A model generated the notes under the pieces. That model had not been told where the DNA came from. It searched no databases and was given only the letters and a program-made list of their open reading frames with translations. Positions 3,863-33,939 of a DNA stretch of 64,000 bases are shown in pieces (position 1 is the first letter of the stretch; every line of letters begins with the position of its first letter). The DNA lies in assembly GCA_964016885.1 (NCBI GenBank), contig OZ024740.1:305412001-305476000 (forward strand). Direction: 5' to 3'. The stretch comes from Eledone cirrhosa (taxonomy: Eukaryota). The translations under genes were made by a program, and so were the position numbers.

Positions 3863-5915
3863 ATTATACACACACATATTCTATTCCCAAAGAAAAATCA
3901 GAAAAGTGCATACTTTTATGCTTGCTCTCCAGGCTAGCATGGTCTAAGTAATCTCATCTTGCTCATAAATTCCATATTTGGCATGGTTACTACATCTGAA
4001 AGCCCTTCTTAATGCCAACAACTTTACAGAGTAGTTTCAGTGCATTATATTATGACACCTGCACAAGAAAGGTTATCACATCTAATCTGAAGAGTCCTCT
4101 CACAACCTATACTGTATCCATTTGATGACCAAACACTAGCCTCTAATCACACACCACACATTTACTTTTAGTGTTGCAGTGCTTGTACTCTAATACTCAA
4201 CTTTTCTCTCAATTCACTTCTGCCCCAGCATTCATGCACATTACACAGCCAATGAAGCATGCTGGGAAATTTGCAGTCAGCTAAAATAAAGACTTTTTAT
4301 CGTGATGCAGTCATATTGCTTTATCCTTTTCTAGAAAATTTTGCTAATGTAGTTTCATGAAAATACAGGACTTTAAACTAATTTAAAGTAGAATTGCTAA
4401 CTGTGAGAATAAGAAAAAGAATCCTTTTCTACCATTGGCTTATGTAGGCAGATGTTCAGCACTATTCTTCATGGATGGGCTGTTGCCATGATAGGCAAGC
4501 TCCTCAAAGATATTTCAAATGAAGGAGGTACTGAAGAATGATAACTGTGGAAACGACAGGTCTGGTCTGTGGGGTGCAGGTGGTAGACAACTAAATAAAT
4601 GTGATGCAGGGAGAAGAAAAGTTTGTTGCGTGTAGGTGGTATATAACTAAATAGTTCTGAGAAATACTATTGTATCAAAAGAATAGGCAGAGAGAAGACA
4701 AAATGACTGCAGCAGAGATTGTTGTATAATCGCATATGTAGCAGCAGTACCATCTGTAGGTTTGGTTTTGTAGAGGGTCAGCAACTGAAGCATTTTCTCA
4801 GCCTGAAACAGGGGCCCAAGTTTATCGACCTCTGGTGGTGGGCCCTGGAAACTGGTCACTGAGCTCTGATCTCAATCAGGCAAATAACAACAACACGAGA
4901 CCAATTCATATGCAAGAACTAGAAACCCCAAAACAATGGTTAGTTTTAGGGGATGCAGTTTTACCTATGATTCACATGTGTGGCATTGTCACATAAGACC
5001 GTCTTAACCCTTTTATTATGCATTTCAATTAAATTCTGAAATAGTGAATTTTTATAAAACCATGACCATTTGTATTTATTTATTAAAACAATACTTTTAA
5101 CACAGTTGTTAAAATGCTCTTACATAATAATCCAACCCTTGCTAGCAGAAAAAGCAGAAATTAAAAAGATGAAGATAATTCTATTATGGAATGATCTCAA
5201 AATTACAAATAAAATTTGCAATATAAAGTGTCACTATATAAAATTAGTTATTAGCCAATATATTACATAGATGAACATTATTTTGACAAAAAGACACCAG
5301 TTTGTATATTGATCTCCTTTGTTGACATCTTGTATAGCAATTGGTGGAGTGAATTTTGTTTTTTTTATATTCCTGAAAAGACAGGATTTAATCAGTTTCC
5401 CCTGATGATATAAAAGCTATTATTTTTTCCCCTTCAAATGTCCCAGAAAATAACAATATTAAAAAAGAAAAACAAAAAAAATGTATAAATGTAATAGATT
5501 ATAATAGTTATATGAGTAGATGGGATGAATCAAATTACTCAGTTGGTAAACAAGGTAATAAGTGGTGACAATACCTGGTTTGGTATATAGCAAATATGAG
5601 TATTGTATATGCTTTTTTTTTTAAAACTATATACTAAACCGCAGTGGTCTCAAAGTGTCTGTAACTATCTGCATGAAGCAACACAGTTGAGGACATTGTA
5701 TTCTTAAAAAGAAAATGTTTAAATACTGGAGGGAAGGCAAAAGCTGACAAGAGGGATAGTCCTCAGAATCCATCCGATCAACAATTGATGGTCACAAAAG
5801 ACAGTGTCAAGAATGCCAACATAAAAATAGGGAAACTCCAATCTACATTCTGCATTATTCAAATAATTTACATCTTTCCATGAAAGAAAAATGATTTAAT
5901 TTGTAAATCATCATT

Positions 5916-6256
5916 CATCATCATTTCATTTTACGTCCGCTTTTTCCCTACTTGCAAGGGTGGGACGGGAACTGATTCTGGCTTGATTTCTACAGCTGGA
6001 TGCCCTTCCTAACACCAACCTCATTTACAGTGAGTGCTGGGTGCTTTTTTTGCCGTGGCACCTCCACGACCACTTTGCAGTGGAATGATATGGACGCCAG
6101 TCCCTATCATCTCATTTCTACAGCTGAGAAAACTGGAGCAATGTGAAATAATAAAGTGTCTTGCTCAAGGAAACAACACATCACCCGGTCTGAGAATTGA
6201 ACTCACAACCTTTCGATTGCAAGGCCAATGCTCTAATCACTAAGCCATGTGCCTCC
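5916..6256 (-). mobile_element. Full-length tRNA/CORE-like SINE, family A, with RTE-type 3' tail
   Basis: Minus strand reads GGAGGCACATGGCTTAGTG..GAGTTCAATTCTC (Pol III boxes), TCCTTGAGCAAGACACTT (CORE-like), AGGAAGGGCATCCAG module and (GAT)n tail; near-identical to 9028-9368 and 15427-15756. Confidence 0.85.
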
Positions 6257-6775
6257 AAATATATAATTTAATTTTTATATACATATTTTCAAATTTATTT
6301 CATTTACCAGTAAGTTTAGTGACATTATGATTAATGAATCATTGTGCTTGTGTATTAATGTGTATGTGTGCGTGTTTATCTCACAGTTTAGTATGTTTGT
6401 GAATTTATTTCATCTTGTTTTCTTCAAACATGAATTCCACCATATTACTTTTATCACACCTTTCAAGTTCACTTGAAAATGTATATTATAATCGTTATAT
6501 ACCCAGTAAAATATCGATTAACGATTCATTTTATATGACGATATGCAAACAATTTTACATTTTATGGGAGTTACCTGTAATTAGAAAAGTTTTGAAACAA
6601 AAATTATATAAATTTATTAAAAAACCTTTTGTTAGGTTGTGTTCCAAAGACCACATCCATATATCAAGTAAACATGTTATAGTTATTTGACGGAACCAGC
6701 TAGTATTCTTTATTTTGTATTTTAGTTAGAAATATAGTAACAAAAAGGGCTAGTGAAGTTATTGAAATTACTTAC

Positions 6776-6823
6776 TTATTCTTTCCTGGGCCTTCCAGGT
6801 TTCTTGTGTTTACGCACAGTTAC
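6776..6823 (-). CDS. AT-hook protein (HMGA/D1-like), coding exon 10: VTVRKHKKPGRPRKE*
   Basis: Acceptor ctttccttcag|GTA; 48 nt, phase 0; AT-hook KKPGRPRK; TAA immediately followed by gtaagt. Confidence 0.8.
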   Translation of the reverse strand, partial: VTVRKHKKPGRPRKE

Positions 6824-7058
6824 CTGAAGGAAAGACAGATTACACAGAATAATTATAAACAAACAACTATGAAATTCAACTGTCCAATGTAATCAAATAC
6901 CAACAAACTTAAATTTAGACACCCAATTACGCTAATCAAAATAGCCTAAACCTTTATATATATTCATGTTAATCATGAAAAACCCTCCTTGCTAGAAATG
7001 GAAGTTCTAATTATCAAAAGTTTTGTTTAGAAAGAAACCGAGAAGAAAACTTAAATAC

Positions 7059-7088
7059 CTTTCCCGATTTGTTCTCACCATCAGCAAC
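7059..7088 (-). CDS. AT-hook protein, coding exon 9 (linker): VADGENKSGK
   Basis: Acceptor ttctttcttatttag|GTT, donor AAG|gtattt; 30 nt, phase 0, open. Confidence 0.65.
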
Positions 7089-7964
7089 CTAAATAAGAAA
7101 GAAAAATTATTAAGCATAACAGTTAACTTTGTTTGATATAAACTGCCTGAATATTTTAAGGATTGCTAAGAAGAATATTAAATCTATGCTATTAGTATTA
7201 TTATTAGAAATACCAATTATGTAAGATTGTGTCTCAGTAGGCACCTCTTAACCAAATATTCACCCCAATCCACTACCCCTACTCCATCCTCCCACCAACA
7301 CCCTTTCTCTGTAAAGTTGGTACCACAACATCCAGTCCAAATAAATGAGATAATGATGTCACGACAAAAAAAAAAAAAGTCCATGCTCTAATGTGGCCGT
7401 GTAGGTAACACGATAAAAAGTTCCCAGTCCACACTGTAAATGTGGTTGGTATTAGGAAGGGCATCCCGCCGTAGAAAACCTGCCAGATAGTCCTATATGA
7501 GCAAGACACGTTCACCCGACCAGCCTTGCCTCAAATTGGGACAACTCCCGCCTAACCCATGCTAGCGTGGAAGATGGACGTTAAATGATGATGATTCATG
7601 ACAAAGTCTTATTTCCTATATTGAAATCATTTAAATGTAGTTAGGATTTGTAGAATATCAACTATTTCAACCAAATAAGACTAGTATGATTTTTACTATT
7701 TGGCACGATACTTCTGGAAGAGGTAGACTTAAGACATGGGATTGGAGGCCAACCTTATGAAACTAAACCTTTTAACAGAGATAACAAGGGACTACAAGAG
7801 TTGGAGACCTGTGAGCTAATTAATCCACTAAAACTAATCCAGGACCACTACGGCCTCATTTAAATCTTAAACCACCTGTCTTAATAGCTGCTTGCACCAT
7901 ATTGTCATGCCCTAACACACTGCCGTTTACCATATCACACTTCCTCTTTTATTGTATTCACTAA

Positions 7965-8324
7965 AAGCCACAAGAATCCGCCACCACCAAAGGACTACTG
8001 CCACATGAAATTTCGTGTGGACATCACATCTCAGCTACGTGGAGGATATACTTCTCGCAAACACAAAGCTGGGAGAAAGTCAAAATTATCTGAGGTGAAC
8101 AAAGAAAATATTGATTTTCACAAAGTGGAGAAAATTGATGGGAGGAAGGATTGTCGAATGTGTTCTTTGCAAAAGAGAAAAACTGCTAAAGGTTATCCAA
8201 TTGAAATCTCGTTTATGTGTTCCTTTTGCAAAGTGCCATTATGTAAAGGCTGTTTTGGCCAATATTATGTACGTGAATAGATAAGCATGACATTTGAAAA
8301 TTAATGTGAATGCTAAAGGGTTAA
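7965..8324 (+). mobile_element. piggyBac transposon 3' relic (C-terminal Cys-rich zinc-ribbon domain plus right TIR)
   Basis: ORF 8005-8280 has H..CRMC..CSFCKVPLCKGCF, the piggyBac/PGBD C-terminal Cys-rich pattern; ends in TAATGTGAATGCTAAAGGG|TTAA. Confidence 0.75.
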
Positions 8325-8904
8325 CCTAGGTGTTTGAAATATTAGCCTCCAATTTAAGCTTATTAAATGCTAAAAATGAGAATTCCTTTTTCTCAACATA
8401 AAACACCTTTCTTCTTTTACTATAGAATTAAGGAACCTGACTAGAATTATGCTTTATTTAGTCTTTGTTTTTTGTTTTATTTAGGTATATATATATATAT
8501 ATATATATATAATCATCGTTTAACGTCCATTTTCCACGCTAGCATGGGTTAGACAATATATATATATTTTTCTTCTATGTGGATGTTATTTTTGTATCTA
8601 TGTATGTACTTACCTTTTCTATTCTGTATTTTTATTTTTTTCTATAGATTTTGTATATTCAGGTATATTTCTAGATTTCATTTTATGAGGAAATAGATTG
8701 ATTTTTTTTATATGTATTTATGTATGTGTATATGTGAATGTGCACACCCATATATATGTGAGTGTTAGGTATGCATTTATGTCTTTGTATTTATGAATAC
8801 AGGTATGAGTGTATATGTATGTGCATGTATGTATCTTTATTTTATGTGTGTGTATTTACATGTATATATTTGTGTATTTTTATATACGAGTGCATGGATG
8901 GGAC

Positions 8905-8937
<33 letters not shown>

Positions 8938-9027
8938 GATGATGATATATATGTGTATATATGTGCGTATGCATTTGTATGCAGTTATGTATGTACGTGT
9001 ATGTGGGTGTATATATAAATGTTAGTA

Positions 9028-9368
9028 TCATCATCATCATTTCATTTTACGTCCGCTTTTTCCCTGCTTGCAAGGGTGGGACGGGAACTGATTCTGGCTT
9101 GATTTCTACAGCTGGATGCCCTTCCTAACACCAACCTCATTTACAGTGAGTGCTGGGTGCTTTTTTGCCGTGGCACCTCCACGACCACTTTACAGTGGAA
9201 TGATAGGGACCCCAGTCCCTATCATCTCATTTCTACAGCTGAGTAAACTGGAGCAATGTGAAATAAAGTGTCTTGCTCAAGGAAACAACACATCACCAGG
9301 TCTGAGAATTGAACTCAACTTTTTTTGATTGCAAGGCCAATGCTCTTACCACTAAGCCATGTGCCTCC
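9028..9368 (-). mobile_element. Full-length SINE, family A
   Basis: Near-identical to 5916-6256; embedded in a (TA/TG)n low-complexity tract. Confidence 0.85.
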
Positions 9369-10454
9369 ACATATGTATGTATTATGTATTATGTATGTTT
9401 ATATTTGTATATATGTGTGTATGTAAATATGTATACGTATATGTCTATTTTTTCCTTCTTATCTGTTATATTTTTTATCAAGTTTATATTTCTCATCTAT
9501 TTATTATTTTAAAATAAGTTTTTATAGTAATGTGCTAGAGCGGTTTGACGTATTTCTATAGCTGGACAACATAGATTTTCTATGCATTATGGCGCCATGT
9601 CGGATTTTTAAAATGTAAACATTTTCTTTGGCTGTTGTGTGTTTTGGTGAGGTTATAATGAGGTTTTTAATCTTAAATAACTGATTTTGACAAGCCCTAG
9701 GAAGGGGATGAAGCGTTCGTAAATCAGTATTTAATGTAAAAACGTATTTTGTATATATTTTAATCAATAATTTGCTTCATGTATAATTATTATTTTTAGC
9801 ACAATAGGATTTTGTCTACATGCTTTGTTGGAATATTCTTTCAAAGTATGAAATATAGCCTTTTGTACTGCTTATTATAATAAATTACTCTATTTTGAGC
9901 TGTTTTAACTTCATCTATGTTTCTAATTTTTTATATCGTTTTTGTAAAAAATGGTATTTATGTATGTATGCATGCATGCATGTATGTATATCCTGTCTAG
10001 TCCATTCATACATATTACTATTTTTCAGGTCTCAAAATTTGTCCCGTTTCCTATCATCTTAATCGAAAATATTCCATCTCCTTTTCTGGGTGGGAAATGC
10101 TAATGGGCTCGATGGAGTAGGGATTATGTTAGCAAAAAAAAAGAAAGATGGGTAGATAAGGTTATTGCTGTATGCATGTGAACATGTGGTCAGGAAATAA
10201 GTATTTTTTAAAAATATTATCTAGTGATTCTGACAATTTCTCTATAAAGGAATTAAATAATGAATTGAACCTTGTTGATTATTTTTTCATTTATATAAGC
10301 TCTGTGATTTTGCAAATATACGATGACTGGAAATTTACAAATTAGATATAACTCTGAACTGCCTTTTACCAATTTTGATGTGGATAAAATTACATTAGAG
10401 CTTTAAATATCTGACTGCCTTATAACAGTTGTATCACCAATTCATATAATTTGC

Positions 10455-10485
<31 letters not shown>

Positions 10486-10675
10486 TAGAGAGACTGCAGC
10501 TAATTGTTTGTCATTGCTACAAAGATGGTAAGGAAGACAGATTCAGTTTATTTAAACAAAATATAATTTATATATCTAAATAGAAAACATCACAAAGACA
10601 GGAGGAAAAAAAAAGCTACAGCTAAAATACTGTGAATGCCCCAAATCTAAAATTTATGTATTAAGCTTTGCTAAT

Positions 10676-10802
10676 ACACATCAGATCTAGCAACCTGTGC
10701 TACAATGGGAACACAACACACCTACACAGGTGAGATACATCAAATCTAACACACTGTGCTATATTGGCAACACAACACAATACACCTACACAAGTGGGAT
10801 AC
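10676..10802. repeat. Two-copy ~60-bp tandem repeat
   Basis: acatca[g/a]atcta..ctgtgcta..acacaacac..acacctacaca.gtg.gat occurs twice. Confidence 0.65.
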
Positions 10803-11304
10803 CATTAAGTTTTTTCTTTTTAAACTTGAGTTTGAAAATGGTAGGATGACTGAAATTTATGAATTACAATAGTAAATTTAAGGACTTCATTAGCAAAATA
10901 TTGCTATTTTTAAAGAAAAAATATCAAATAGCTGAAGAAATCCTTAAGAATAGTGTTCCTTTTGTAGATACTGTTGTTAAAATAACCATTATGATGTACA
11001 AACAAAACAATTATAATGGTCTCTAAAATTTACCAACGCTCTTCACTGAAGCTCCCCACACACTCACACCAATTATAACATTTAATGAATGAGTCAGTCG
11101 TCTGTGGTCTCTAACCTGCCAAAAATAGCAAAAAATTCACTCTTAAATTGCAACCTACTATTTTTCAAGGGAAAACACTATACCAGAATATAAAATAAGA
11201 TAGACACAGAGCACTTTTAAACATAAATCTGATGGATCATGGTTGGCATGGGCTAAGCAATAATATTTTAAGTCTATGTAATCTAAACAGAAAAAAAGAC
11301 TTAC

Positions 11305-11346
11305 TGGATTTTTGCATGGCCTACCCCTTTTTTTTTTATGGGCAAC
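11305..11346 (-). CDS. AT-hook protein, coding exon 8: VAHKKKRGRPCKNP
   Basis: Acceptor ttctattttctag|GTT, donor CCA|gtaagt; 42 nt, phase 0; AT-hook KKRGRP. Confidence 0.8.
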
Positions 11347-12099
11347 CTAGAAAATAGAAATATATCACATAAACAATGTATAACAGAAATAAACTTATAA
11401 TGAAAACACAACATTAAACCAATACGGTATAGGTGACATTTTTATATCTCTCTGACAAGCTTAATTTTGAGGGAGAGAGATATTTATCGTCAGTACTTAT
11501 TTCTATGTTCACACTCAATATGAACTACAACCATAGATCAAAGCCATAAGCTTTGTTGTAAATCTCACTAACAATTTCACAGGTTACCAATAAAGTAGCA
11601 ATGTGATAATCTTAAAGATATATAAGACTACTTTGGCACCACAATATAATTATTGGTACAGTCATTATTTTCTTATTTATTTTCATAATGGCTCGCTCTA
11701 CTTTAGTTTTACCATCACCAAGTTTTCAAATCCTTTCCTAATATATTTCTGATTTTAACATGCAATGTTTGTCTCTTTTTGAAAAGGCTTGTTTTCATCC
11801 AACTTCCTGTGGATGTGTGTTTAATAGTAGAGCTCTAAATATTTGAATACTAATGTGGTTTTTAATGCATGAAATTTGTGGTGGGATACTGAACTGATTG
11901 TTTAAATTCTGATAATGTAAATAACCTCGGAAAATAGTCCTGAAAGTGAGGATTTCCAGAGAAGAAATGTAAGTAATGTCAGACAATAATATTGAAAGGG
12001 AGGATTTCCAGAAGAAATTGTATCCAAACAGTCATCATCATGATTCAAACCCCATTGAATATTTACATTTGCTTCTTTTAAATTATGGCATTTTTATCA

Positions 12100-12512
12100 T
12101 ATGGAAGCCGCGGAGTGGAGAGACCTAAGACCTGGGATGAGGTGTTAGAAGCCGACCATACCCAATTACACCTCTCAAAGGCGATGACACGCGACCGTGA
12201 CCTCTGGCGTCACGCAGTAATACAGAAGACCCAAACCCCCACGGGTACAAGCCGAAGCTGAAGCATATAGACAATATGCCCCCCACACCCTTCCACTGCA
12301 AAGTGGACGTGTAGGCGCCACGGAAAAAAAAGCACCCGGCACTCACTGTAAATGAGGTTGGTGTTAGGAAGGGCATGCAGCTGTAAAAATCGAGCCAGAA
12401 TCAGTTCCCGTATGAACAAGACAAGGTCAGCCGACCGGACACTGCTCACAACAGGACAACCCGTCTAACCCATGCCAGCGTGGAAGAACAGACGTAAAAC
12501 GGTGATGATGAT
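12100..12512 (+). mobile_element. 3' end of RTE-type LINE (5'-truncated)
   Basis: GRPKTW-like terminal codons, cagtaatacagaagaccc, AGGAAGGGCAT module and (GAT)n tail as at 20700-21197. Confidence 0.65.
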
Positions 12513-12998
12513 AACTGTTTCTACATTTGGCACAAGGCCAACAATTTGAAGGGAAGGGGAATGTCGATTAAATCGATCTCAGTGCATTACTCGTACTTTA
12601 TTTTTATTGGCGCTGTAAAGATGAATGGCAAAGCTAACCATCGCAAAATTTAAATTCTGCTAATCCACTACCCTTATTTTTTGTCATGAATATAACATTC
12701 CATTTATTAATCAATTTTATATAATATTAGCCAATAATCTATATTAAATGGTGATACGTGTACATAATTTAAATAAATTTATATTTGGACAAAAATTCAT
12801 AAATAGATTTATGTAAAAACCTTTTAAATTATATTTGAAATACTACTTTAATCCACTTTTGATATAAAACCACCTTTGGTTTTATGCAATAAACAAGACT
12901 ATTTTGATAAATCCCAACAAATTCTTGATTAAGTGAAAATTAAGAACTGCATCTTATTAAAAATATGGTAGGAAAAAGATTAAGAAAGTATTATTTAC

Positions 12999-13046
12999 AG
13001 GTCTTGAACGTGGTCTTCCTCTAGGTTTCTGTTCTTTGATAGACTC
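12999..13046 (-). CDS. AT-hook protein, coding exon 7: ESIKEQKPRGRPRSRP
   Basis: Acceptor ttttctttcttag|GAG, donor CCT|gtaaat; 48 nt, phase 0; PRGRP core. Confidence 0.8.
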
Positions 13047-13141
13047 CTAAGAAAGAAAACAAAAAGCACAAATAAGTGAAAATTATTAACTGTATCATAT
13101 TAGAAATATGGTAGGAAAAAGATTAAGAAAGTATTATTTAC

Positions 13142-13189
13142 AGGCTTTGAGCGTGGTCTTCCTCTAGGTTTCTGTACTTTGTTAGTGTC
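13142..13189 (-). CDS. AT-hook protein, coding exon 6: DTNKVQKPRGRPRSKP
   Basis: Acceptor ttttctttcttag|GAC, donor CCT|gtaaat; 48 nt, phase 0; PRGRP core; paralogous to 12999-13046. Confidence 0.8.
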
Positions 13190-15081
13190 CTAAGAAAGAA
13201 AACAAAAAAACACAAATAATTAACCAGATGGACAAGTTGAAACATTTGTAAATTTAAGTTTATCATTTAAAAGATACTTTGGAGAGATACACCAGAAAAA
13301 ACAAAATTTAGAAATATTAATTTCATACTGCTTTATAATTTATCACAGCTCAGTTGATATATCCTAACTAAAACATTGTAACAAATTCTTTGTCTTAACA
13401 TCTCATCTACTTCTCTCAGTTGGTGGGGCCATAATTAAAAAAGTTCACTGAAATCAAAATAACTCAAAAGCAATTATTTTCTTTTATTTATGCTAAATCA
13501 GTTGTTTTTTTTTGCTCTTGTGTGAAGAGAGACAAAGATAAAAAATATAAGTAATAGAAAGAGACGTATTTCTTTTCTTCCCATATTCTTACTTCAATAT
13601 CTTGTTCACCCCTCTATGTCACATACATATAAATCTATCTACAACTGCTTTTTTTTTTGTTTCTCACTTCTCTCCTTGTCTCCTACTTTTCTGGCACTGA
13701 CAACAATAACAACCTCGTAGGCAGGTTAGTCAATGCAAAATGATTTATCTATCCACCAATTGTGGGTTATTGTAACAATAAGTAAAAGATGGCTATTTTC
13801 GGAATGAATTTAGCCCATCAATGACTATTCTCATAAAAGAAAAAGGTCCTGGAAGAAGTTCCCTGTAGACTTGAGAAAAAAACATGTAAACAGTGTTTCC
13901 AAACAGAACATTGGAATGGAACCAAAAAACAGGATGTGAACCTCTACATCAGCTGTTTCATCTTGAACATTTCTAGCAATTGATATAAACAAGCTCCCAG
14001 GTATTGAATGTTTAAGAAAACGTTTTTTCAGATTTTTGCTCATAGTTTGTGATACTAAATTGTTTATTTAATTTAACAAAATAAATATGCTTATGGAACT
14101 AGTGTGAAAATATCCTACGGTTATTGAGGGAGGTAATCAGTGGTTGTAGTGGAAAACTTAACTAATTTATTTCACAACATTGTTTCAGGTTTGATTTCAT
14201 TATGCAGCACAACTTTCGGCAAATGCCTTCTACAATAAATAGCACTGGATCAACCAAGATGTTGAGCAAAATTTGGTATCGTATATGCTTGTTTTATACC
14301 CATTTATATCGACCTGAGATATGAACACCATTACTGTCATAAATGCAGTTAACTAGTGATTGGGCTGTAAACCTACAACCAACCACATTTTATAGTTTTC
14401 AAACATCAATAAACTTTAGTATTTTGTGCTAATACAAACACGTGTGTATGCATGTATGTCTGTTTAATAAATATGTATCTGAACATGTACAGTATTAACC
14501 AAGACTGCATAAGTGTGTGCGCACACATTCTCATATATATATCTCAATCATCATTTTTATGTCCACTTTTCCATGCTTGCATGGGTTGGTAGGTCCTTAG
14601 CACGGCATCTCTCCACGTCATGATCCTTTCCTTTCTCATTGCCTCAGTGAGCCTCAGTGATTTGAGGTCAGTTCTCACAATCTCTGCCCATATATATATA
14701 TTTTATATATACATAAAAAAAAAAAATCAAAATTTATAAATTGAATTTCCTTGTTAACAGAGTAGATTTAAGATGAGAATTCCATAAGAACCTATTGTAA
14801 AACTGAGACAAACACCACCATATAAACAAAAAATTCAGTTTTATAAAACCAGTTTAAATTCATGATAATTTTAGAGTTTACACATTTCAATTAGAAATAT
14901 TTATGACTTTGCTCATGGCAAAATATCTTGATTCATTTACCAAATCCATAAAAATATATTCTACAAAGTAATGAATAACTAAATGAGTTTCTTGCATTTT
15001 TAACAATAGTAACTATAATAATTAACTCAAAACAATATGGATGATGTTTAGAAAGAAACTAGAATCTGCAATAAAACTTAC

Positions 15082-15129
15082 AATTGGATAAATTCTTGGC
15101 CTTCCTCTTGAACGACCCGTTGGAACCCA
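15082..15129 (-). CDS. AT-hook protein, coding exon 5: WVPTGRSRGRPRIYPI
   Basis: Acceptor acttttttcag|TGG, donor ATT|gtaagt; 48 nt, phase 0; RGRPR core. Confidence 0.85.
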
Positions 15130-15426
15130 CTGAAAAAAGTAAAATTACGAGAGAGAAAATCAATAATAGGAATACAAGAGAGATTACTTCCATATTTACA
15201 CAAATTGATTTAATACAGATTTACTAATGTCTTTGTTATACAAACTTCCTGGTTCTAAAACTTACATTCTGCATCTATTAACTGCAGATGTTCCATTACA
15301 GAATACACTTTATATAGATATACCTATCCTTGAGATTCTTTAAAACAATTTCATATTATCTACCAAGTCTGAAATATAATCATTATATTAATACCCTTTG
15401 AATTTATTATTCCATATTACTAACAG

Positions 15427-15756
15427 AAGGCACATGGCTTAGTGGTTAGAGCATTGGCCTTGCAATCGAAAGGTTGTGAGTTCAATTCTCAGACCGGGTG
15501 ATGTGTTGTTTCCTTGAGCAAGACACTTTATTTCACATTGCTCCAGTTTACTCAGCTGTAGAAATGAGATGATAGAGATGAGGTCCCTATCATTCCACTG
15601 CAAAGTGGTCGTGGAGGTGCCACGGCAAAAAAGCACCCAGCACTCACTGTAAATGAGGTTGGTGTTAGGAAGGGCATCCAGCTGTAGAAATCAAGCCAGA
15701 ATCAGTTCCCGTCCCACCCTTGCAATCAGGGAAAAGGCAGACGTAAAATGAAATGA
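15427..15756 (+). mobile_element. Full-length SINE, family A
   Basis: Reverse complement of the copies at 5916-6256 and 9028-9368. Confidence 0.85.
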
Positions 15757-15844
15757 ATTCATCTACTACTGTCCCCCACCCCCATTAAATTTTGCTCCAA
15801 GCATACTTCCATCTCTCTCTCTCTTTATATATATATATATATAC

Positions 15845-15898
15845 CTTCTTCTTTTCAGACTCTTCTTTTCTAGGCCTACCACGTCCTTTTTTAACTAC
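15845..15898 (-). CDS. AT-hook protein, coding exon 4: VVKKGRGRPRKEESEKKK
   Basis: Acceptor tttcttttgcag|GTA, donor AAG|gtatat; 54 nt, phase 0; canonical AT-hook KKGRGRPRK. Confidence 0.85.
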
Positions 15899-18390
15899 CT
15901 GCAAAAGAAATTGAAAATCAGTTAAAAGATATGTCGAGTAAATATTTACTACAATGGCACAAGACCAGTAATTTTAGGGGAGGGATATAATCAATTGAAC
16001 CAACTCTACAAGAGAAATGAAAGACAAGATCAACTTTGAGTGGGATTTGAACTTAGAAAGCAACTTAATACCACAAAGCATTTATGGTAGCATCCCACCA
16101 TGACCCTCAGAGATTAAAATAATTTAAAACTAACCTTACACAAAATCATAAGCACCTGTCCAATTCCTTAAACCTCTAGAGCAGGGGTGAGCAATCAAAG
16201 GTATTTTATCATTATAACTACTAATTTGCTTTTCAAAAAATACTTAGTTACTAACATATCACTAATTGGATCAGATTCTCAAAAAGGCTGCCTATCTCTA
16301 CATTTAGATTGACATAGCAGCAAAGACAAACACAAACTCTGGTAACTATCAAAGGATCTAAAATGTTAAAAATTCTGCTGTTTACAACACCATCCCAGTC
16401 AACATTAAAATAGTTTTAAAAAACTGTTGACAATGTTTTTAGAAAAACACTTAATAATCAAGATTGTGTCAGAATTGAGAAGAGGTTACCTAACATACTC
16501 AAGATATAAAATGACAATTCCAAACCTAAAGTAATGGTTTCTAATTTAGGCACAAGGCAAACAATTTAGGAAGTTGCCAGCACCCTCAATTTAAAAAAAC
16601 TGGATTAAGGTTTGCGATAAGGTGGAAAACATTAGCTCAAGGCATAATATTAAATTTATCTGATCTTTGGCAAGCATGGCGAAAACTACAGGCATACATC
16701 AGTCTTATTAAACCTCACTGGTGAAATCACCTTTATCGTACCTGCCAGATCTGTACTAATATACTAACTCTATAAATACATTAATGCCCATAGTAAGCAT
16801 AACATAACAATGGACTACACTAATTACCCAGGGATGCCATCAGCCTAGAAAACAAAGTAATTGATTGATACAATGTTACTAACAAAATACGTTAATGAAA
16901 AGCCTCCCTGCAAGTTGCTTACAAAAAATAGAAACGCTAGGAACTTAGACACGACTAAACAAAACAGAATAAAGCCATAACATGATGAATAGAGCTGAAT
17001 TTAGAAAATTTAGATTATTTTGCAATAACTCATCTCTGAAATTTATAGACAAGAAATACTACATAGGAGGTAGAGAGTTTTATATGGGTTGAATGTTTAC
17101 TGAAAATAGGGAGGAAATAACTGTAATAAGGTGCAGATTGTAGTTGACTTAAAAAAAAAAATGTACTCCAACTTCAGGTTGGTTTCAGTAGCATTGGAAA
17201 TTAGACCAAAAAGGAAAATTTCCATTTCAATATCTCATAAATCTATATGCTTGCAGACTAGTTGAACACACAATATTAATAAGTAGGGCAATTCTTTTTT
17301 TATTATTTAAACTTAAAAAATGTTATACCTTATATAGACCTTAAAGATATAAACTTTAACTCAAGATCATTATTCATTAAACAAAAATAAAAATTATTTC
17401 CATATACATTGCTGCAATATAAAATTTCATGTTATCAGGGGGGAAAAAAACTGTCTTTAGTTAGTATTTTATCGAGCATTGAAAAACTACTCAACACTAG
17501 CTGATGTATGTTGATACTTAAACAAGAGAGTGTAAGGAGATATTGAGTTTTCCATTCAGCAAAATCATCTTAGATCATTTTTTATTTGGCACGGATCTTG
17601 GGCAAAATTCAAATCAGTGAGACAAATGTTTCCTCAATAGAATATTGTGAACTTTTCAATTTTTTTTATTAAATCCTTCAGTGGCAAATGGCATCTATCT
17701 ATGTGAAACTCACTTCTATTATTGGCGAACTGACACATCATTTTGCTTTTTCCACAAGAATTCCTCCAAAAGTTCTATTATCTCACAAATGCAGGGTCAA
17801 TTGCTTCGATCCAAATGCCCCATTAAGTGACTACTGGCTCATATGGGAATCTGATATCTTTGAAAAAGGGCCTTTCTAGTGCGATCAGAATTATGAAGGA
17901 AATGTGCAACACGTCACATGAAAAAATTGGGATAGAGGATCTTTCTTATTTAACCTACTTTGACTATATACCTGGCAGCATCTGATAGAAGAAATAAGAG
18001 GCTTTCTCATGCAACGCCTATTTCATACAGATTATCAACAATAACTTGATTTATGATAAATAGAACAGCTGTAACGAGTTCCTCACATACACATGTGTAT
18101 GTGTGTGTCTATGTATGCATATACAAGTTGTGGTTTTCAACCTATACTGGATTATTGTCTCCATTTCATTTACTCTGAAAGCTTTGGCTGTAGAACTGAC
18201 CCCTTTTCTCTCCCCTTAAACATCATTATATTGACCATATGTATAATGAAGTGTATATATATACATAATATTTCATCATCATTTCATTTTATGTCCGCTT
18301 TTCCCTGCTTGCAAGGGTGGGATGGGAACTGATTCTGGCTTGATTTCTACAGCTGGATGCCCTTCCTAACACCAACCTCCAATATATATA

Positions 18391-18780
18391 TTATTGAGTA
18401 AAATGACAGGAGGCTGGACTGGTGATATTCCTTCAAAGATTTATTATAGTAAACACTATGCACATATCAATGACCAGGTTCCGTAGGATCCTGGTGACAT
18501 CAGCTGTTGCCAGTCTGCCAGCCTTTACTTGAAGGCTGGTCATCCAGACTGACAACAGCTGGCCCTGACCGCCTTCGGGCTTTAAACATTTCTATCTGCT
18601 TTACAGCCTCTCGCATTGTGTTTATCATTATTCCTGTATTATTTAACTTTTATACAATAAACACCTGATGATGTCACCAGGATCCTACAGAACCTGGTCA
18701 TTGAAATGTGCATAGTGTTTACTATAATAAATCTTTGAAGGAATTTCACCAGTCCAGACTCCTGTCATTTTACTCAATAA
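18391..18780 (+). mobile_element. Non-coding Penelope-like fragment with inverted pseudo-LTR copy
   Basis: 18391-18502 is the reverse complement of 18669-18780; internal hairpin 18501-18561; AATAAA after the ribozyme-like motif. Confidence 0.7.
18658..18721 (+). ncRNA. Minimal type I hammerhead-ribozyme-like motif
   Basis: Stem I TAAACAC/GTGTTTA; core CTGATGA (18665-18671); stem II ACCAGG/CCTGGT; GAAA (18703-18706); short stem III TGTGCA followed by UA (AUA cleavage triplet). The base of stem II is imperfect. Confidence 0.6.
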
Positions 18781-19548
18781 TAATTAACTCCATTCTCGCA
18801 GCACCAACAAGATTCAACATAAACGAAGATGGATGAGTTGCATTACGTCAAGTCCTTTTCCTAATATTACATCACGGTTGACTATACGGAATGACCAGTT
18901 CTATCCAGTGGTGAACCAACAGACCTAAATGTATGTATAATATATATATATATATATAATATGGGCATATAAAAACGATATATATGTATGCGTATATATG
19001 CGTGTGTGTAAATATTACCATTGCTGGTTTTATTCCTTGTAGATTCTGCCCAATACCAGCCAAAGTCCCTTAAAAGATTGAACTGGAGACAGTATTTATG
19101 TGTGTATATATGCATGTATATAAATTTAAGTCACACTACCACCACTAATTCTAGTTTTCACCAGTTTCATTTTTGATTTTTATTAATTTCTTAGGGAATT
19201 GTTTGATCATCTGCTTTTGCTAATTGCTTTATTTCTTTTCTTTCTCTAAGACTCTAGATGTTTTCTTTGAAAGGAAAGTTCTGACAATTTTCAATATTTT
19301 AAATAAGATTTTAATCAATATTTTATATTTAAATTTTTTTAAAGAATTTTTAGACCTAAAAATTTTTTTTTATTTGCTATTTTTAATCAATATATGTTTC
19401 TGCCATTTCTAGGCCATTGTAAACTTTCATAGACTTATAGACATTTTAGCAAAAAATTGTCCTACTAATAAGTCAATTTCAAGGCGAGAGAAGTAAATTT
19501 AGATTTTGAAGAGAGATATAGAAGAAAGTGGTGGTTGAAAGAAATTAC

Positions 19549-19596
19549 CTCAGAACTTTCCTTAGAAACTGCCTCTGTGGTGTCATTGGAATCTGC
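19549..19596 (-). CDS. AT-hook protein, coding exon 3 (acidic): ADSNDTTEAVSKESSE
   Basis: Acceptor cttttctgttgtag|GCA, donor GAG|gtaatt; 48 nt, phase 0, open. Confidence 0.7.
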
Positions 19597-19658
19597 CTAC
19601 AACAGAAAAGCATATAAATTATAAATCTCAGGAAACGGAATAACATCACCACAGAGTC

Positions 19659-21197
19659 CCACGCCCCATTATCTGGTGGGCTCTCAGAAAACTAGGTGTT
19701 GATGAATGGCTTGTGAGAGCTATACAAGCCATGTATAAAGAAACAGTCAGCAAGGTTAGAATTAACAACGAATATAGTGAAGAGTTTAGCCTAAAAGTTG
19801 GTGTTCATCAGGGCTCCGTCCTTAGCCCCCTCCTATTTATTATTGCCCTTCAGGCTATAACAGAGGAGTTCAAGACCAGCTTCCCATGGAAACTCCTATA
19901 CGCTGATGATCTAACGCTTATAGCTGAATCAATGGCTGAACTAGAGAAGAAATTCCAAACATCAAAAAGGCCTTAAAATTAACCTGTCTAAGACTAAAGT
20001 TCTAGTATGTAGGAATGAAAATAGGGCACTGGTCCCATCTGGGAAATGGCCATGCTCAGTGTGTAGGAAAGGAGTAGGCAGAAACTCCATTTTATGTCCC
20101 AAATGCAAAGTATGGGTGCATAAAAGATGTAGTGGGATCACAGGTAAGCTAACTAAGAAAATTAGATTTTATATGTGGCCGGTGCTCAGGTGCAATAAGT
20201 AGCAAGTGCCAACAGAATACTAGCTCATTCCATTGCACAGATGGTTCTATAGAAATAGTGGACACCTTCCGTTACCTGGGTGACAAAATCAGCAGTGGTG
20301 GAGGGTGCTCTGGAAGTACAGTAGCTAGAGTCAAAACGGGATGGAAAAAGTTCAGAGAGCTTATACCACTATTGGCCACTAAAGGTTTCTCTCTAAAAAT
20401 GAAAGGCAAGCTGTATGATGCCTGCATACGAACAGCAATATTACATGGCAGAGAGACATAGGCATTGTGTGCAGAGGATCTACGCAGACTAGAGAGGAAC
20501 GAAGCTTGCATGCTCCGTTGGAGGTGTAATAGTAATATATATGTGAACAGCAAAGCATAAATGAACTAAGTGAGAAATTAGGAATAAGAGGGATCAGATG
20601 CTGTTTACTTGAGAGAAGGCTACGTTGGTACGGTCACGTGATGCACATGAAAGATGACAGCTGTATAAAAAAGTGCAAGTCAATCAAAATAGACAGTAGC
20701 CACGGAGTAGGCAGACCCAGAAAAACCTGGGACGACTTGATAAATTCCGACCTCACACACTTACACCTCTCCAAGACAATGTCACTGGACTGAGATCTTT
20801 GGCGCTACGCAGTAATACAGAAGACCCGCCTTGCCTAAGTACAAAGCGAAACCTAGTCAGTAGGCACCTCTTAACCAAAATACACCCCCATCCTACTACC
20901 CTCACCACTTTCGATCTAAAGTTATGTTGGCACCACAACATCCAGTCGTAAATAAATGAGGTCGTGTAGGTGTCACGACAAAAAAACACAGTCCACGCTG
21001 TAATGTGGCCATGTAGGTAACATGGTAAAACTTCCCAGTCCACACTGTAAACGTGGTTGGTATTAGGAAGGGCATCCAGCCGTAGAAAACCCGCCAGACA
21101 GTCCTATACGAGCAAGACAATCAATCTTGCCTCAAGTGGGAAAATTCCCGTCCAAACCCATGCTAGCGTGGAAGATGGACGTTAAACGATGATGATG
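19659..21197 (+). mobile_element. RTE-clade LINE, 5'-truncated, frameshifted reverse transcriptase plus 3' UTR
   Basis: GVHQGSVLSPLLF, LLYADDL, FRYLG and RLRWYGHV..GRPRKTW across broken ORFs; 3' UTR ends in (GAT)n. Confidence 0.9.
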
Positions 21198-22726
21198 ACT
21201 TACTCCCACCATTCCCCGATACTAGTATGTCACTGGTAACAGTAATTGCTTGGGGTTCAGGAAGATGGCTCACCAGATTTAATTTTAATGAATTTGCATG
21301 AGACTTACAAGATCAGTCACAGACTGGGCATCTATTTGCTCAGCATAAATAATTTTAGTAAACTCCTCAAAATTCTCAATCAATTAATTGAAATGTGCAT
21401 TTCATTAGCAATATGGGCACAAAATGGTTAAATGAAAGACAGTCAATGACAATATAAATATTGCTCTCTATTTTACTTCATGTTACTTTTTATATTCATA
21501 GTATACATTTACTTTCATGTAATAAACAAATTTGATCAGGATTTCTTAAATATCAACACTTGAGCTCTTTTGATACCAACCCAGCCATGCTTGTACAAAA
21601 CAAAATTGATTTTAAAAGGTTCCTATATAAATTCAAATCTTCCATCATAAGTTACTATCATCATCATTTAATGTCCCTTTTCCATGCTAGCATGTGTACA
21701 ACAGGCTGCCCTGTCGTGAGAGATCCAGGTTGAAGGACCGTGTTTTGCTCACACAGAACTGATTTTGGCTTGGTTTCTTTGGCTGGATCTCCTTCCAAAC
21801 GGCAACCACATTTATAGTGCATGATGGGTGCTTTTTGTCGTGACACCTAGACGACAGCTTTACAGTGAGCTGGGCATGTTTTGTTGTGTCGCCAACATGA
21901 CTACTTTACAGTGTGGACTGGGTGCTTTAGTCGTGTCACCTTCATGACCACTTTATAGTGTGGACTGGACACAATGTCTGGGGAATTGAGGAGGTAGGTA
22001 TAGTGGTGGGATGATTACAGCAAGGGAAGTGTATGGTAGGGAAGGTGTTGCATACTAGATATGCCCTAGCTAATGCATATTGAAGGGCAGGTCTTCTGTA
22101 ATACTGCATAGCACCATAATAAAATAATAATTTTAGTAAACTCCTCAAAATTCTCAATTAATTGAAATATGGTCACAAAATGGTTAAATGAAAGAGGACA
22201 ATCAATGACAATATAAATATTACTATCTCTTTATTTTTGTTCAGCAATGACAACATTACCAGTTTCACAATCGACACAAAGCAGAGAGTAGCAGGAATTA
22301 AATACCAGTATAATACTAATGAAATTATGGAATATCCTAAAAGCATGGTTAAAAATCAGTGCACCCCAAGAACTAAATTATTATATCAATCATATATCAA
22401 ATACATCATAACGTTCATGTATCTATAAAAAAATGTTGCATATAGTCCATGGTGGTTATGATTAATTGTCTAGATACAGTTTCTATGAACAGAATGAGCA
22501 AAGTTAGGAATAAGAGTTGGTTCAAATACAGTTAAACAGGCATCTCTAATCTCAATCTAGTAAACTTCGAAATTTGTGGAGTCTTATTTGGAGGAAGGGG
22601 GGATTAATTAATGAGAGGAGCTCTTGGTTTGTTGCTGACATGTTGCTTACTGTACACTAACTCACTAACCCTCATCCTTTTTATTATCAACCTCCACTTT
22701 GGTCTTATTATACAAAATTGCTTGCT

Positions 22727-22957
22727 TTAACCCATTCATGACTGCATTTCTAATACACACTATTTCAATCAATTAATGAAAAATTTTGAAGGATTTACTG
22801 AAATTATTAATTATTTCATTACTAAGATAGTAACTTAATATAAGGTTCTTATATAAATTTTGGAAGATTCTAATTTAAATTGAAAACCTTCAAAATGGGC
22901 AACTTTATTTCATAGAACCAGAGCTAGTTTTGGTTGGGTTAGTAACTAAAGAGTTAA
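22727..22957 (-). mobile_element. TTAA-flanked MITE, family 2 (related copies ~42480-42710, ~52830-53042, ~53822-54035)
   Basis: TTAACCC...GAGTTAA ends; shared internal ataattttagtaaa/ctggttctatgaa blocks between copies. Confidence 0.55.
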
Positions 22958-23135
22958 AGTGTTCATATCTAAATTAAAAAGTATTATACTGTAAGAACTT
23001 TTTAAGTTACGCATCATACACCAATTGCATAATTGAATAATAAACAATGTATATCAGAATAATTGTCACAAAAGGCTTAAAGATTACCACTAGTCATATA
23101 TCATCTCAGATTCTAATATATTCCATGCCAATTCT

Positions 23136-23342
23136 TAACCCTTTAATGTTCAAACCAGCCAAAATTCTCTACCCCTTTCTGTTCAAACTGGCCACTCATA
23201 CTGATGTTAAGGCATTGTTCTCAAAATAAATACTTTCAAAATCTCATAGATTCGATATTATGAGAGATAATTATGCAAGGTAAAGCCTTTACCGTGAAAA
23301 TATAATAGTATATATAGAGTAATGTGAATGCTAAAGGGTTAA
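23136..23342 (+). mobile_element. piggyBac-type MITE, family 1
   Basis: TTAA|CCCTTTA...AATGCTAAAGGG|TTAA; homologous to 37753-38848 and 56315-56726. Confidence 0.8.
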
Positions 23343-23354
23343 AAGAATACTTAC

Positions 23355-23390
23355 AACATCTTCATCGGCTTTCATTTCTTTAGCGGGCGT
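23355..23390 (-). CDS. AT-hook protein, coding exon 2: TPAKEMKADEDV
   Basis: Acceptor ttcttttctttttgtag|ACG, donor GTT|gtaagt; 36 nt, phase 0. Confidence 0.8.
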
Positions 23391-24098
23391 CTACAAAAAG
23401 AAAAGAAAATAAAGAAAATATCCAAGATATAAATATTTACATCTATTTAATGCTATTTCTCTACCTAACCACCTAAATAAAAAATAAAATAAAATAAAAA
23501 AATTCAACATGGAGATTCTCCCAAAATTAAAAGTCAACACATCAGATATGCCTCATACTACTGTTTCTGTATAAGACCAGCAGAAGATTTGTATAGCTAC
23601 AATCCTTGAAATATAACTTGCATACCTACACACATTATGCACATATATAAAAACCAAACAATAAATCATTACAATTCAAATCAGATCCACTTCCATATGA
23701 ATGTTCAACCTGATAAAAATAGCAACCAAATCGCCCTCAAATCACCCCTGACTATCCTAAAAAAAAAAATAAGGTTGCATTACTGTAGCCCTGGATATAA
23801 TATGCCTTTCAAAAGATGAATGGTTACAGTTGTACCATTTTTAATCATAAGTTCTCAATCAGGCCTGACTTGGGACAAAGCAATCTAGCAAAAACTTTCA
23901 ACACCTTTTAAATTAAAACTAAATAGGTTTTCAACATACCAGCACTGATGTGAATTGGAAGATTGTATGAAAATAAGGTTCTTATATAAATAAAAATTTT
24001 CCAACATGATTTCATATCTGAAGCTATCTTGGTAATGGAAAAAAAAAAAAAAATTTCATAAATCACTTAAAATTTGTCATTAATTCAAATATAGTGTT

Positions 24099-24205
24099 AT
24101 TTTAATAGAAATATAGGCACAAAATAGTTAAAACTACATTTAGGTTTCGCTCCACGAAACCTAAATGTAGTTTTAACTATTTTGTGACCATATTTCTATT
24201 AAAAT
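24099..24205. repeat. Near-perfect 51-bp-arm hairpin
   Basis: attttaatagaaata..cacaaaatagttaaaactacatttaggtttcg-CTCCA-cgaaacctaaatgtagttttaactattttgtg..tatttctattaaaat. Confidence 0.9.
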
Positions 24206-24344
24206 GTTTAATTTTTTTTGTTGACCAGTGAAAATGAAGACAAGATACTCTAAATAAGTCAGTCCACCATCTAAACTAACCAAATCTAATCAATAAGGTA
24301 TACAACTAAATAGAATTTAAAACAGAAATAATTTAGATTCTTAC

Positions 24345-24395
24345 ATCAGAATTAGGTGAGTCTTTCCGGCCCCTTTTGGCACTTCTGGATGACAT
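24345..24395 (-). CDS. AT-hook protein, coding exon 1 (start): MSSRSAKRGRKDSPNSD
   Basis: ATG at 24395 downstream of acceptor ccctttttttaaag; donor GAT|gtaaga; phase 0. Confidence 0.75.
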
Positions 24396-30450: not shown

Positions 30451-30704
30451 TATATATACATATAAATAAAATGAAGAGAACCAAGGTTATCACATTAAAT
30501 CCATATCTATATATTTAATCTAGAAATGGCTGCTACAGGACTAGAACTGTTTCATTCGAAGGAAAGCCGGAATACACACACATACATATTTATATAAAAC
30601 ATACTAGATAAAAATGTGAGAATTATTTTTTCTTAAATGAAAAAAACAATAAAATAAAATTTAAAATTCAGTACAACAAATATACATATATATATATTAG
30701 TACA

Positions 30705-30738
<34 letters not shown>

Positions 30739-30851
30739 CCCGTTTCTTTTCAATTTGAAAGCACATACCTCAAAGCAGTAATGGTTGATAGAAATAAACC
30801 ACGCGGCAAAACTAATAAGCCTCCTCTTTTTTGTCACTCTCTCCAGCTTAC

Positions 30852-30960
30852 CTCCCTTGACAGTCACATGACTACGACGGTGTTACAAAAATTGAAAATG
30901 GCGCTTTTTATTAAATTGCTGAAACATTTACAGAATGGTCGGTCACTGGCAAAGACAGCT
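30852..30960 (-). promoter_or_regulatory. Probable promoter and first non-coding exon of the AT-hook gene
   Basis: Local CpG enrichment; strong donor GAG|gtaagc at 30852/30851; YY1-like AAAATGGCG (30895-30903, + strand); E-box GTCACATGAC (30863-30872). Confidence 0.45.
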
Positions 30961-33900: not shown

Positions 33901-33939
33901 CAAACGTTTATATATATATATATATATATATACATATAG

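What the first reader, a model, noticed from the sequence alone, without database searches (positions are those of the whole stretch)
6776..24395. Hidden ~150-aa chromatin protein with six AT-hooks, assembled from ten symmetric micro-exons
Seen: ten GT-AG-bounded minus-strand exons of 30-54 coding nt, all phase 0, join into MSSRSAKRGRKDSPNSD-TPAKEMKADEDV-ADSNDTTEAVSKESSE-VVKKGRGRPRKEESEKKK-WVPTGRSRGRPRIYPI-DTNKVQKPRGRPRSKP-ESIKEQKPRGRPRSRP-VAHKKKRGRPCKNP-VADGENKSGK-VTVRKHKKPGRPRKE*. None appears in the ORF track. Known: vertebrate HMGA proteins have three AT-hooks, each in its own exon, and an acidic C-tail; TPxK is a CDK consensus site. Here there are six hooks, no acidic C-tail, and the acidic patch is N-terminal. 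Inference: every internal exon can be skipped without a frameshift, so hook number and spacing could be tuned by splicing in a very AT-rich genome.
Basis: partly seen in the sequence, partly recalled or inferred. Interest (0 to 1): 0.75.

Follow-up and report, generated by a model that had tools for sequence, protein, structure and literature searches.

The report
Octopus's second, six-hook HMGA-like gene
Ten tiny exons, four of whose joins are seen spliced in a probable RNA sample, encode a small octopus protein with six AT-hook motifs that likely grips AT-rich DNA; it is a separate gene from the genome's conventional HMGA gene, and its hook number has changed repeatedly by exon duplication, much as described for a frog gene.

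Summary
The gene is real. All ten phase-0 AG/GT exons lie as stated and give 150 aa with six hooks. A probable RNA run joins exons 5-6-7-8-9, 4 of 9 coding junctions. Orthologues exist in three Octopus species, two of them auto-named 'HMGI-C'. O. sinensis models carry 4, 5 or 6 hooks, and X1 has the same hook spacing as this gene. Bivalve, limpet and annelid look-alikes have 4-11 hooks. Xenopus XHMG-AT-hook is a published precedent: 6-8 hooks, no acidic tail, a duplicated exon. New here: a conventional HMGA-type gene lies 67 Mb away, so this is a second gene. Exons 6 and 7 are a recent 143-bp tandem duplication, apparently independent of the O. sinensis one. The scan holds no look-alike finding. 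Verdict: new variant of a known kind, moderate interest.

The parts
30769..30904 (-). Predicted promoter and 5' non-coding exon: GCGCCATTTT motif at 30904 (YY1-like, label recalled), CATGTGAC at 30870, donor GAG|GTATGT after 30769
   Evidence: Sequence only; not tested with reads
24345..24395 (-). Coding exon 1 (51 nt, ATG). Holds KRGRK, probably a decayed hook; the unnamed relative P0130 has an intact hook here
   Evidence: 14/17 identical to O. sinensis; alignment
23355..23390 (-). Exon 2 (36 nt), acidic linker. Its internal Met is the start of O. sinensis isoform X3; TPAK is not conserved
19549..19596 (-). Exon 3 (48 nt), acidic linker
   Evidence: weak orthologue identity, 5/16
15845..15898 (-). 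Exon 4 (54 nt), AT-hook 1
   Evidence: Pfam AT_hook 19.6 bits, cut-off 17.4; 14/18 to O. sinensis
15082..15129 (-). Exon 5 (48 nt), AT-hook 2 (WVPTG type, no PKGS extension)
   Evidence: Spliced to exon 6 in X4; 14/16 to O. sinensis; its pattern matches once in the genome
13142..13189 (-). Exon 6 (48 nt), AT-hook 3
   Evidence: 13/16 to O. sinensis
12999..13046 (-). Exon 7 (48 nt), AT-hook 4; recent tandem copy of exon 6
   Evidence: 41/48 nt identical to exon 6; both copies in one spliced contig
12930..13219 (.). 143-bp tandem repeat, 2.0 copies, 90% identical, holding exons 6 and 7 with their splice sites
   Evidence: TRF and self-BLAST
11305..11346 (-). Exon 8 (42 nt), AT-hook 5; best match is the Octopus fourth-hook module, with a 2-residue gap
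7059..7088 (-). Exon 9 (30 nt), linker
   Evidence: Spliced to exon 8 in X4
6776..6823 (-). Exon 10 (48 nt), hook 6 (PGRP) and TAA, followed at once by a GTAAGT donor
   Evidence: 10/15 to O. sinensis
5000..6574 (-). Predicted 3' UTR exon (acceptor ends at 6575; poly(A) signals near 5392, 5084, 5017), holding a SINE at 5910-6265
   Evidence: Sequence. X4 holds 0.65 of the words of 4950-7100, against 0.77 expected if this stretch is exonic.

Best explanation
[quoted passage not shown] Shown: the exons, four junctions, the 143-bp duplication, the orthologues, the separate HMGA-type locus. Inferred: nuclear location, DNA binding, disorder (from the orthologue's model), higher avidity from more hooks and from the missing acidic tail, and independent duplications in two octopod lineages. 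Exon skipping that gives 4-6 hooks is shown only as predicted RefSeq models in O. sinensis, and whether it is regulated is open.
For: Ten clean phase-0 exons with an open frame; 6 hooks against at most 2 in 60 shuffles. Junctions 5-6, 6-7, 7-8, 8-9 in X4, with the 6-7 joint absent from DNA-like runs. Pfam AT_hook over the cut-off for exon 4 and for O. sinensis X1. Orthologues in three Octopus species keep the hooks (13-14 of 16-18 residues in exons 4-6) while linkers drift (5/12, 5/16). The Atlas model of the orthologue has pTM 0.11 and pLDDT 0.55, and its nearest clusters carry AT_hook (scores up to 0.83, a lead only). Exons 6/7 are a 2.0-copy tandem repeat, and none of the 5 residue changes touches the PRGRPR core. 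O. sinensis X2 and X4 equal X1 minus 14 and 30 residues of whole hook modules. Separate locus C1:238.50-238.42 Mb: a hook-1 exon, a hook-2 exon matching human HMG-I chain 2ezd_A (E 4e-5, 14 residues in a row identical) and a candidate acidic last exon. Literature: D1 and HMGA1 bundle satellite DNA through several hooks (PMC5957525, passages); hook number sets D1's partitioning into chromocenters (10.1101/2025.08.07.669059, passages).
Against: No binding or protein data. The closest architectural precedent, XHMG-AT-hook1, did not bind HMGA's AT-rich probes (PMC3723657, section 16). Only 3 of 6 hook exons hit Pfam and 1 passes the cut-off; hook 6 is PGRP and hook 5 is followed by Cys. D1 variants with a strong positive net charge clustered chromocenters poorly, and this protein is +28, so it may coat DNA rather than bundle it. 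No skipping was seen here (20 joints and 810 loose ends not shown; contigs drop rare forms). The identical hook spacing in O. sinensis X1 also fits one shared six-hook ancestor with later gene conversion. No third hook exon was found for the HMGA-type locus within 300 kb downstream of its second hook, and its last exon is unconfirmed.
Confidence: 0.7

Rival explanations
1. The gene works as described, but hook number is not a tuned dial: symmetric micro-exons duplicate and get skipped at random, and the extra hooks and minor isoforms are tolerated noise. This is compatible with the best explanation and rivals only the 'tuning' claim.
For: Hook number in relatives and look-alikes ranges from 4 to 11. 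Coding and intron differences in the 143-bp unit do not differ significantly (7/48 vs 7/95, p = 0.23). No skipped form was seen in X4.
Against: Both new copies are included at depth in X4, and the hook core is unchanged. This gene and O. sinensis X1 share spacing 20-17-16-14-26 although their extra hooks seem to come from different duplications.
Confidence: 0.45
2. The hooks serve mainly RNA or protein binding, or nucleolar targeting, not AT-rich DNA binding, as may be so for Xenopus XHMG-AT-hook1.
For: XHMG-AT-hook1 (8 hooks, no tail) failed EMSA on HMGA probes and bound only p53, hnRNPK, PTB and NPM. AT-hooks of HMGA1 also bind RNA (PMC7013770, section 3).
Against: Five RGRP cores with basic flanks fit the HMGA consensus BBXRGRPBB given in PMC7013770 to varying degrees. 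That EMSA used in vitro translated protein and two probes only.
Confidence: 0.15
3. It is simply the octopus HMGA2 (HMGI-C) orthologue, as the automatic names say, which gained hooks and lost its tail.
For: Names in O. sinensis and O. vulgaris records; one hook per exon, as in HMGA2 (PMC11291832, passages).
Against: Another locus in this genome has the canonical PKGSKNK second hook and a candidate acidic last exon. The orthologue P0125 and window exon 5 find no HMGA chain in the PDB at E up to 10. O. bimaculoides carries a different automatic name.
Confidence: 0.1
4. It is a germline or sperm chromatin-condensing basic protein rather than a general architectural factor.
For: Small, pI 10.9, 32% Lys+Arg, no acidic tail.
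Against: No tissue data point to the gonad. The predicted promoter looks housekeeping-like (YY1-type motif, label recalled). The basic residues are organised in hooks, not Arg runs.
Confidence: 0.06

Closest known systems
Octopus LOC115210677 'high mobility group protein HMGI-C' (O. sinensis XP_029635208-10, XP_036357686; O. vulgaris CAI9722082; O. bimaculoides XP_014783749)
   Same: Orthologue: collinear exons, 14/17, 14/18, 14/16 and 13/16 identity in exons 1, 4, 5, 6; X1 has six hooks with the same spacing and no acidic tail.
   Different: Here the extra hook is a copy of exon 6 placed before the 'HK..RGRP.KN' module; in O. sinensis the copy lies after it (12/14 to its own third hook). Only automatic names; no paper found.
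Xenopus XHMG-AT-hook1-3 (PMC3723657)
   Same: 6-8 hooks, no acidic C-tail, hook number changed by an internal exon duplication and proposed differential splicing, living beside a canonical HMGA2 (passages).
   Different: 276-327 aa class (327 and 298 aa in the passages seen) against 150 aa. The authors found no similar sequences in other species. Homology with this gene was not tested; convergence is assumed.
Vertebrate HMGA1/HMGA2
   Same: Small, disordered, AT-hooks only, one hook per exon in HMGA2.
   Different: Three hooks, a PKGS-extended second hook and an acidic C-tail; this genome's match to that description lies at C1:238.5 Mb.
Drosophila D1
   Same: Disordered multi-AT-hook protein; hook number governs partitioning into chromocenters.
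   Different: 10-11 hooks broken by acidic regions and a C-terminal acidic domain; here one uninterrupted hook block and net charge +28.
Unnamed molluscan and annelid multi-hook proteins (Sinanodonta KAL3852346, Tegillarca KAJ8300613, Patella KAK6175439, Lottia ESO88810, Lamellibrachia KAI0216316)
   Same: Acidic N-terminus, then a hook pair spaced 20-23 residues; top non-cephalopod hits of the family profile among those I had named.
   Different: 4-11 hooks; 4 of these 5 keep an acidic C-terminal stretch (net -6 to -16). Hits between hook repeats can arise without orthology, and no tree was built.

Membership tests
HMGA (HMGA1/HMGA2) | AT-hook motifs | tested here: met
   Five RGRP and one PGRP core; Pfam PF02178 on 3 of 6 hook exons, 1 over the cut-off; O. 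sinensis X1 18 bits against 17.4
HMGA (HMGA1/HMGA2) | Small, intrinsically disordered, no other domain | tested here: met
   150 aa; orthologue model pTM 0.11, pLDDT 0.55; no other Pfam family in 7 of 7 relatives scanned
HMGA (HMGA1/HMGA2) | Three hooks (3 or 4 in PMC7013770) | tested here: not met
   Six hooks
HMGA (HMGA1/HMGA2) | Acidic C-terminal tail | tested here: not met
   Two residues follow the last hook motif; the next exon in frame is not acidic; the O. sinensis and O. bimaculoides orthologues end at the same place
HMGA (HMGA1/HMGA2) | Second hook with the PKGSKNK extension, as in 2EZD | tested here: not met
   Absent here; present at C1:238,490,085
HMGA (HMGA1/HMGA2) | One hook per exon | tested here: met
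   HMGA2 layout from PMC11291832 passages
HMGA (HMGA1/HMGA2) | Conserved neighbours (MSRB3, LLPH; recalled for HMGA2) | tested here: inconclusive
   SelR matches lie on C4, C15 and C347; LLPH on C1 at 32 Mb, far from both loci; neighbours here are Folliculin and a COX6B-family exon
HMGA (HMGA1/HMGA2) | [quoted passage not shown] | not testable with these tools
   Needs EMSA, SELEX or ChIP
XHMG-AT-hook (Xenopus) | 6-8 hooks, no acidic tail, internal exon duplication | tested here: met
   against the passages
XHMG-AT-hook (Xenopus) | Common descent (sequence homology outside the hooks) | not tested
   No Xenopus sequence was identified among the search hits; the paper reports none outside Xenopus
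XHMG-AT-hook (Xenopus) | Isoforms that differ in hook number | tested here: inconclusive
   Met in O. sinensis predicted models; not seen in this species' one run
Drosophila D1 | 10-11 hooks in modules separated by acidic regions, near-neutral charge for clustering | tested here: not met
   Six hooks in one block, net +28

The most novel reading that the evidence does not exclude
Cephalopods carry, beside a conventional HMGA, a tail-less HMGA-like protein whose DNA-binding valency is a dial. Separate lineages rebuilt it by independent micro-exon duplications, two octopod lineages converging on the same six-hook spacing (20-17-16-14-26), and cells reset it by regulated exon skipping (4, 5 or 6 hooks) to match AT-rich repeats in their large genomes.
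Probability: 0.2. Interest if true: 0.7.

Novelty: new variant of a known kind. Interest (0 to 1): 0.4.

Why it matters
It corrects an annotation: the octopus 'HMGI-C' records are likely a second multi-hook gene, with the conventional HMGA elsewhere on the same chromosome. It also offers a natural valency series (4, 5, 6 hooks within O. sinensis models; 4-11 across molluscan look-alikes) to test how hook number and charge set chromatin packing, a question so far probed with engineered D1 variants. If the two six-hook layouts arose independently, that would point to selection on hook spacing. The general design is already published for Xenopus, which caps the surprise.

Tried and rejected
No RNA holder was listed as such: all four runs have kind '?', so X4 is read as RNA only from its exon-limited cover. 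A 42-residue frame around exon 4 found nothing at E up to 10 among 37 candidates; the six-exon profile did. The Pfam AT_hook scan of the genome gave 1 match of 55 candidates and missed this gene, so it is too weak to count copies. Further copies or a retrocopy: exon 6/7 DNA 1 match, exon 5 pattern 1 match, P0012 9 matches of which only this locus reaches 82% and the one other read is a tandem repeat. Decayed extra hook exons within 4.9-31 kb: none above about 55% identity. Positive selection on the duplicated exon: not significant (p = 0.23). Synteny with HMGA2 neighbours: none close. 'Acidic patch moved to the N-terminus' rejected. Conserved CDK site rejected. Third hook of the 238-Mb gene: not found in 300 kb downstream, and none of 17 genome-wide RGRP.KW-type matches lies there. 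No let-7 seed in the predicted 3' UTR. No structure prediction was run, since the orthologue's model is disordered. Two papers could not be read (PMID 28474175, amphioxus HMGA; PMC307378, HMGA2 exon map); the first may describe invertebrate multi-hook forms.
Full report
Observation. All ten exons are in the sequence at the stated span, on the minus strand, 30-54 nt long, each a multiple of three, with GT after each and AG before exons 2-10. Joined, they read 150 residues plus stop, pI 10.9, with hooks at spacing 20-17-16-14-26 and net charge +28. The window has six hook motifs on one strand; 60 block shuffles gave at most two. The genome is 3.0 Gb, and the nearest named proteins are from Octopus, so I call it octopus-like.

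Splicing. Four runs of one organism and one study hold the 3' end; none is on record as RNA. On 11200-13420, X1-X3 cover introns and exons alike, while X4 covers exons 6, 7, 8 and a SINE and has essentially no depth in the other intron bins. X4 has a joint that skips the 95-nt intron between exons 6 and 7 (CT..AC on the plus strand), absent from X1-X3. Its loose ends match the end of exon 5, the end of exon 7 (2 contigs), the start of exon 8 and the start of exon 9. So 4 of 9 coding junctions are shown, and both duplicated exons sit in one spliced contig. The loose part upstream of exon 6 is given as 255 letters, possibly a display cap, which is enough for exons 1-5 (237 nt), but only 30 letters are shown. 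No 6-to-8 skip appears among listed rows; 20 joints and 810 loose ends were not shown, and contigs drop rare forms.

Orthologues. A profile of the six hook exons found O. vulgaris 'mobility group HMGI-C isoform X2'. Its cluster has 6 members: four O. sinensis RefSeq isoforms, O. vulgaris and O. bimaculoides. They are collinear with the window, exon by exon. O. sinensis X1 has six hooks with the same spacing. X2 and X4 equal X1 minus 14 and 30 residues, that is one and two whole hook modules. These are predicted models; I did not see their read support, and that the modules are exons is inferred from the window's layout.

How hook number changed. Exons 6 and 7 lie in a 143-bp, 2.0-copy tandem repeat at 90% identity. 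The exons differ at 7 of 48 bases, changing five residues, none in the PRGRPR core; the excess over intron differences is not significant (p = 0.23). Exon 7 is closest to exon 6 (11/16). Exon 8 is closest to the Octopus fourth module (9 identities with a 2-residue gap, against 7/14 to the fifth). The O. sinensis fifth module is closest to its own third hook (12 identities). The simplest reading is two separate duplications of the third-hook exon, one before and one after the fourth module, that ended at the same spacing. A shared ancestor with gene conversion is not excluded; I put independence at about 0.65. Two unnamed relatives (P0127, P0128) show a block repeat of hooks 1-3 instead.

Wider family. 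The family profile gave 250 proteins at E up to 0.001, most of them probably generic hook repeats. I looked up 10 selected proteins: 7 were named, including a mussel, a clam, two limpets and an annelid. Those proteins carry 4-11 hooks; four of five keep an acidic C-terminal stretch and all have an acidic N-terminus. So the N-terminal acid patch is likely old, and what the octopods lack is the tail. No tree was built, and orthology of these proteins is not shown.

A second gene. A pattern for the canonical second hook (motif recalled) gave 19 matches against 26 for the control; I read 4 of them. One, at C1:238,490,085, is a 69-nt AG/GT exon that matches human HMG-I chain 2ezd_A at E 4e-5 with 14 residues in a row identical. 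A 90-nt first exon with a hook lies 12 kb upstream and a candidate acidic last exon 66.5 kb downstream. No third hook exon was found in 300 kb downstream, and no reads were laid there. The window's exon 5 and the O. sinensis orthologue find no HMGA chain in the PDB. The finding's gene, 67 Mb away, is therefore likely a second gene and not the HMGA2 orthologue. It appears single-copy.

Mechanism. Inferred from AT-hook chemistry (PMC11354804, section 11 and passages; PMC7013770, sections 3 and 15): each RGR core enters the minor groove of an AT tract, and six hooks on a disordered chain give avidity and could bridge DNA segments, as proposed for D1 and HMGA1 (PMC5957525, passages). In D1 variants, hook number set partitioning into chromocenters while strong positive charge impaired clustering (10.1101/2025.08.07.669059, passages), so this +28 protein may coat AT-rich DNA more than bundle it. 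In HMGA2, loss of the tail leaves DNA specificity but alters protein contacts (PMC11291832, section 7). Against: the Xenopus multi-hook protein did not bind HMGA probes.

Precedent and print. Xenopus XHMG-AT-hook has 6-8 hooks, no acidic tail, an internal exon duplication and proposed differential splicing (PMC3723657, passages and section 16). Searches for 'HMGA' with 'octopus' (5 papers) and 'AT-hook' with 'cephalopod' (1 paper) listed nothing on this gene, judged from titles and abstract starts; broader searches likewise. Subscription papers, including the amphioxus HMGA survey, were not readable, and no supplements were read. PMC13192832 was seen as abstract only. The scan's own index has no look-alike stretch; it does list other exon-duplication arrays in this genome, which I did not test.

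Verdict. A real, spliced gene, annotated only automatically in relatives; not a member of HMGA in the strict sense, but likely working like one. New variant of a known kind; interest 0.4.

Noticed in passing
G000:C1:238,423,395-238,502,558 (L050, L057, L058), minus strand: Conventional HMGA-type gene: hook-1 exon, PKGSKNK hook-2 exon and a candidate acidic last exon after a 66.5-kb gap. No third hook exon found, so it may be a two-hook HMGA.
   Followed up: partly
window 7059-7088 against G000:C1:238,423,490: Exon 9 matches the start of the other locus's candidate acidic exon at 7 of 9 residues and 19 of 27 bases (1 of 2000 shuffles; noticed after the fact). It could be a remnant of the tail exon, but Octopus orthologues do not share the match. 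Unexplained.
   Followed up: partly
window 6776-6574: The stop codon is the last codon of exon 10, followed by an intact donor and a 201-nt intron. The next exon read in frame begins VTPIK, and SPIK precedes a further hook in longer relatives (P0130, P0172). The tail may have been lost by a stop at the exon end; speculative.
   Followed up: partly
window 23355-23390: An internal Met in exon 2 matches the start of O. sinensis isoform X3 and of P0126, so a form without exon 1 is possible.
   Followed up: no
P0012 (O. vulgaris record): Its C-terminus looks like the last hook exon read in another frame, probably a gene-model error; O. bimaculoides XP_014783749 is named lens epithelium-derived growth factor.
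   Followed up: no
L025:2523-2861 +, L026:3920-4144 +; L008:7831-8157 -: Neighbours: Folliculin exons 72-84 kb past the window end, and a COX6B-family exon 42 kb before its start.
   Followed up: no
window 19644-21200, 7888-8277, 31888-35175, 61857-62537: Mobile-element relics: a reverse-transcriptase fragment in intron 2, a DDE_Tnp_1-like zinc finger in intron 8, and further retroelement-like frames upstream.
   Followed up: partly
genome-wide: A dispersed repeat family, probably a LINE, encodes a KRGRGRPRK hook-like motif and accounts for most of the 100 listed of 149 pattern matches.
   Followed up: no
window 27823-28283 and 30011-30464: A 466-bp direct repeat at 92% identity in the predicted first intron.
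   Followed up: no
window 11327: A one-base insertion in the A10 run of exon 8 in one X4 contig (depth 115 of 2263), probably homopolymer error.
   Followed up: no
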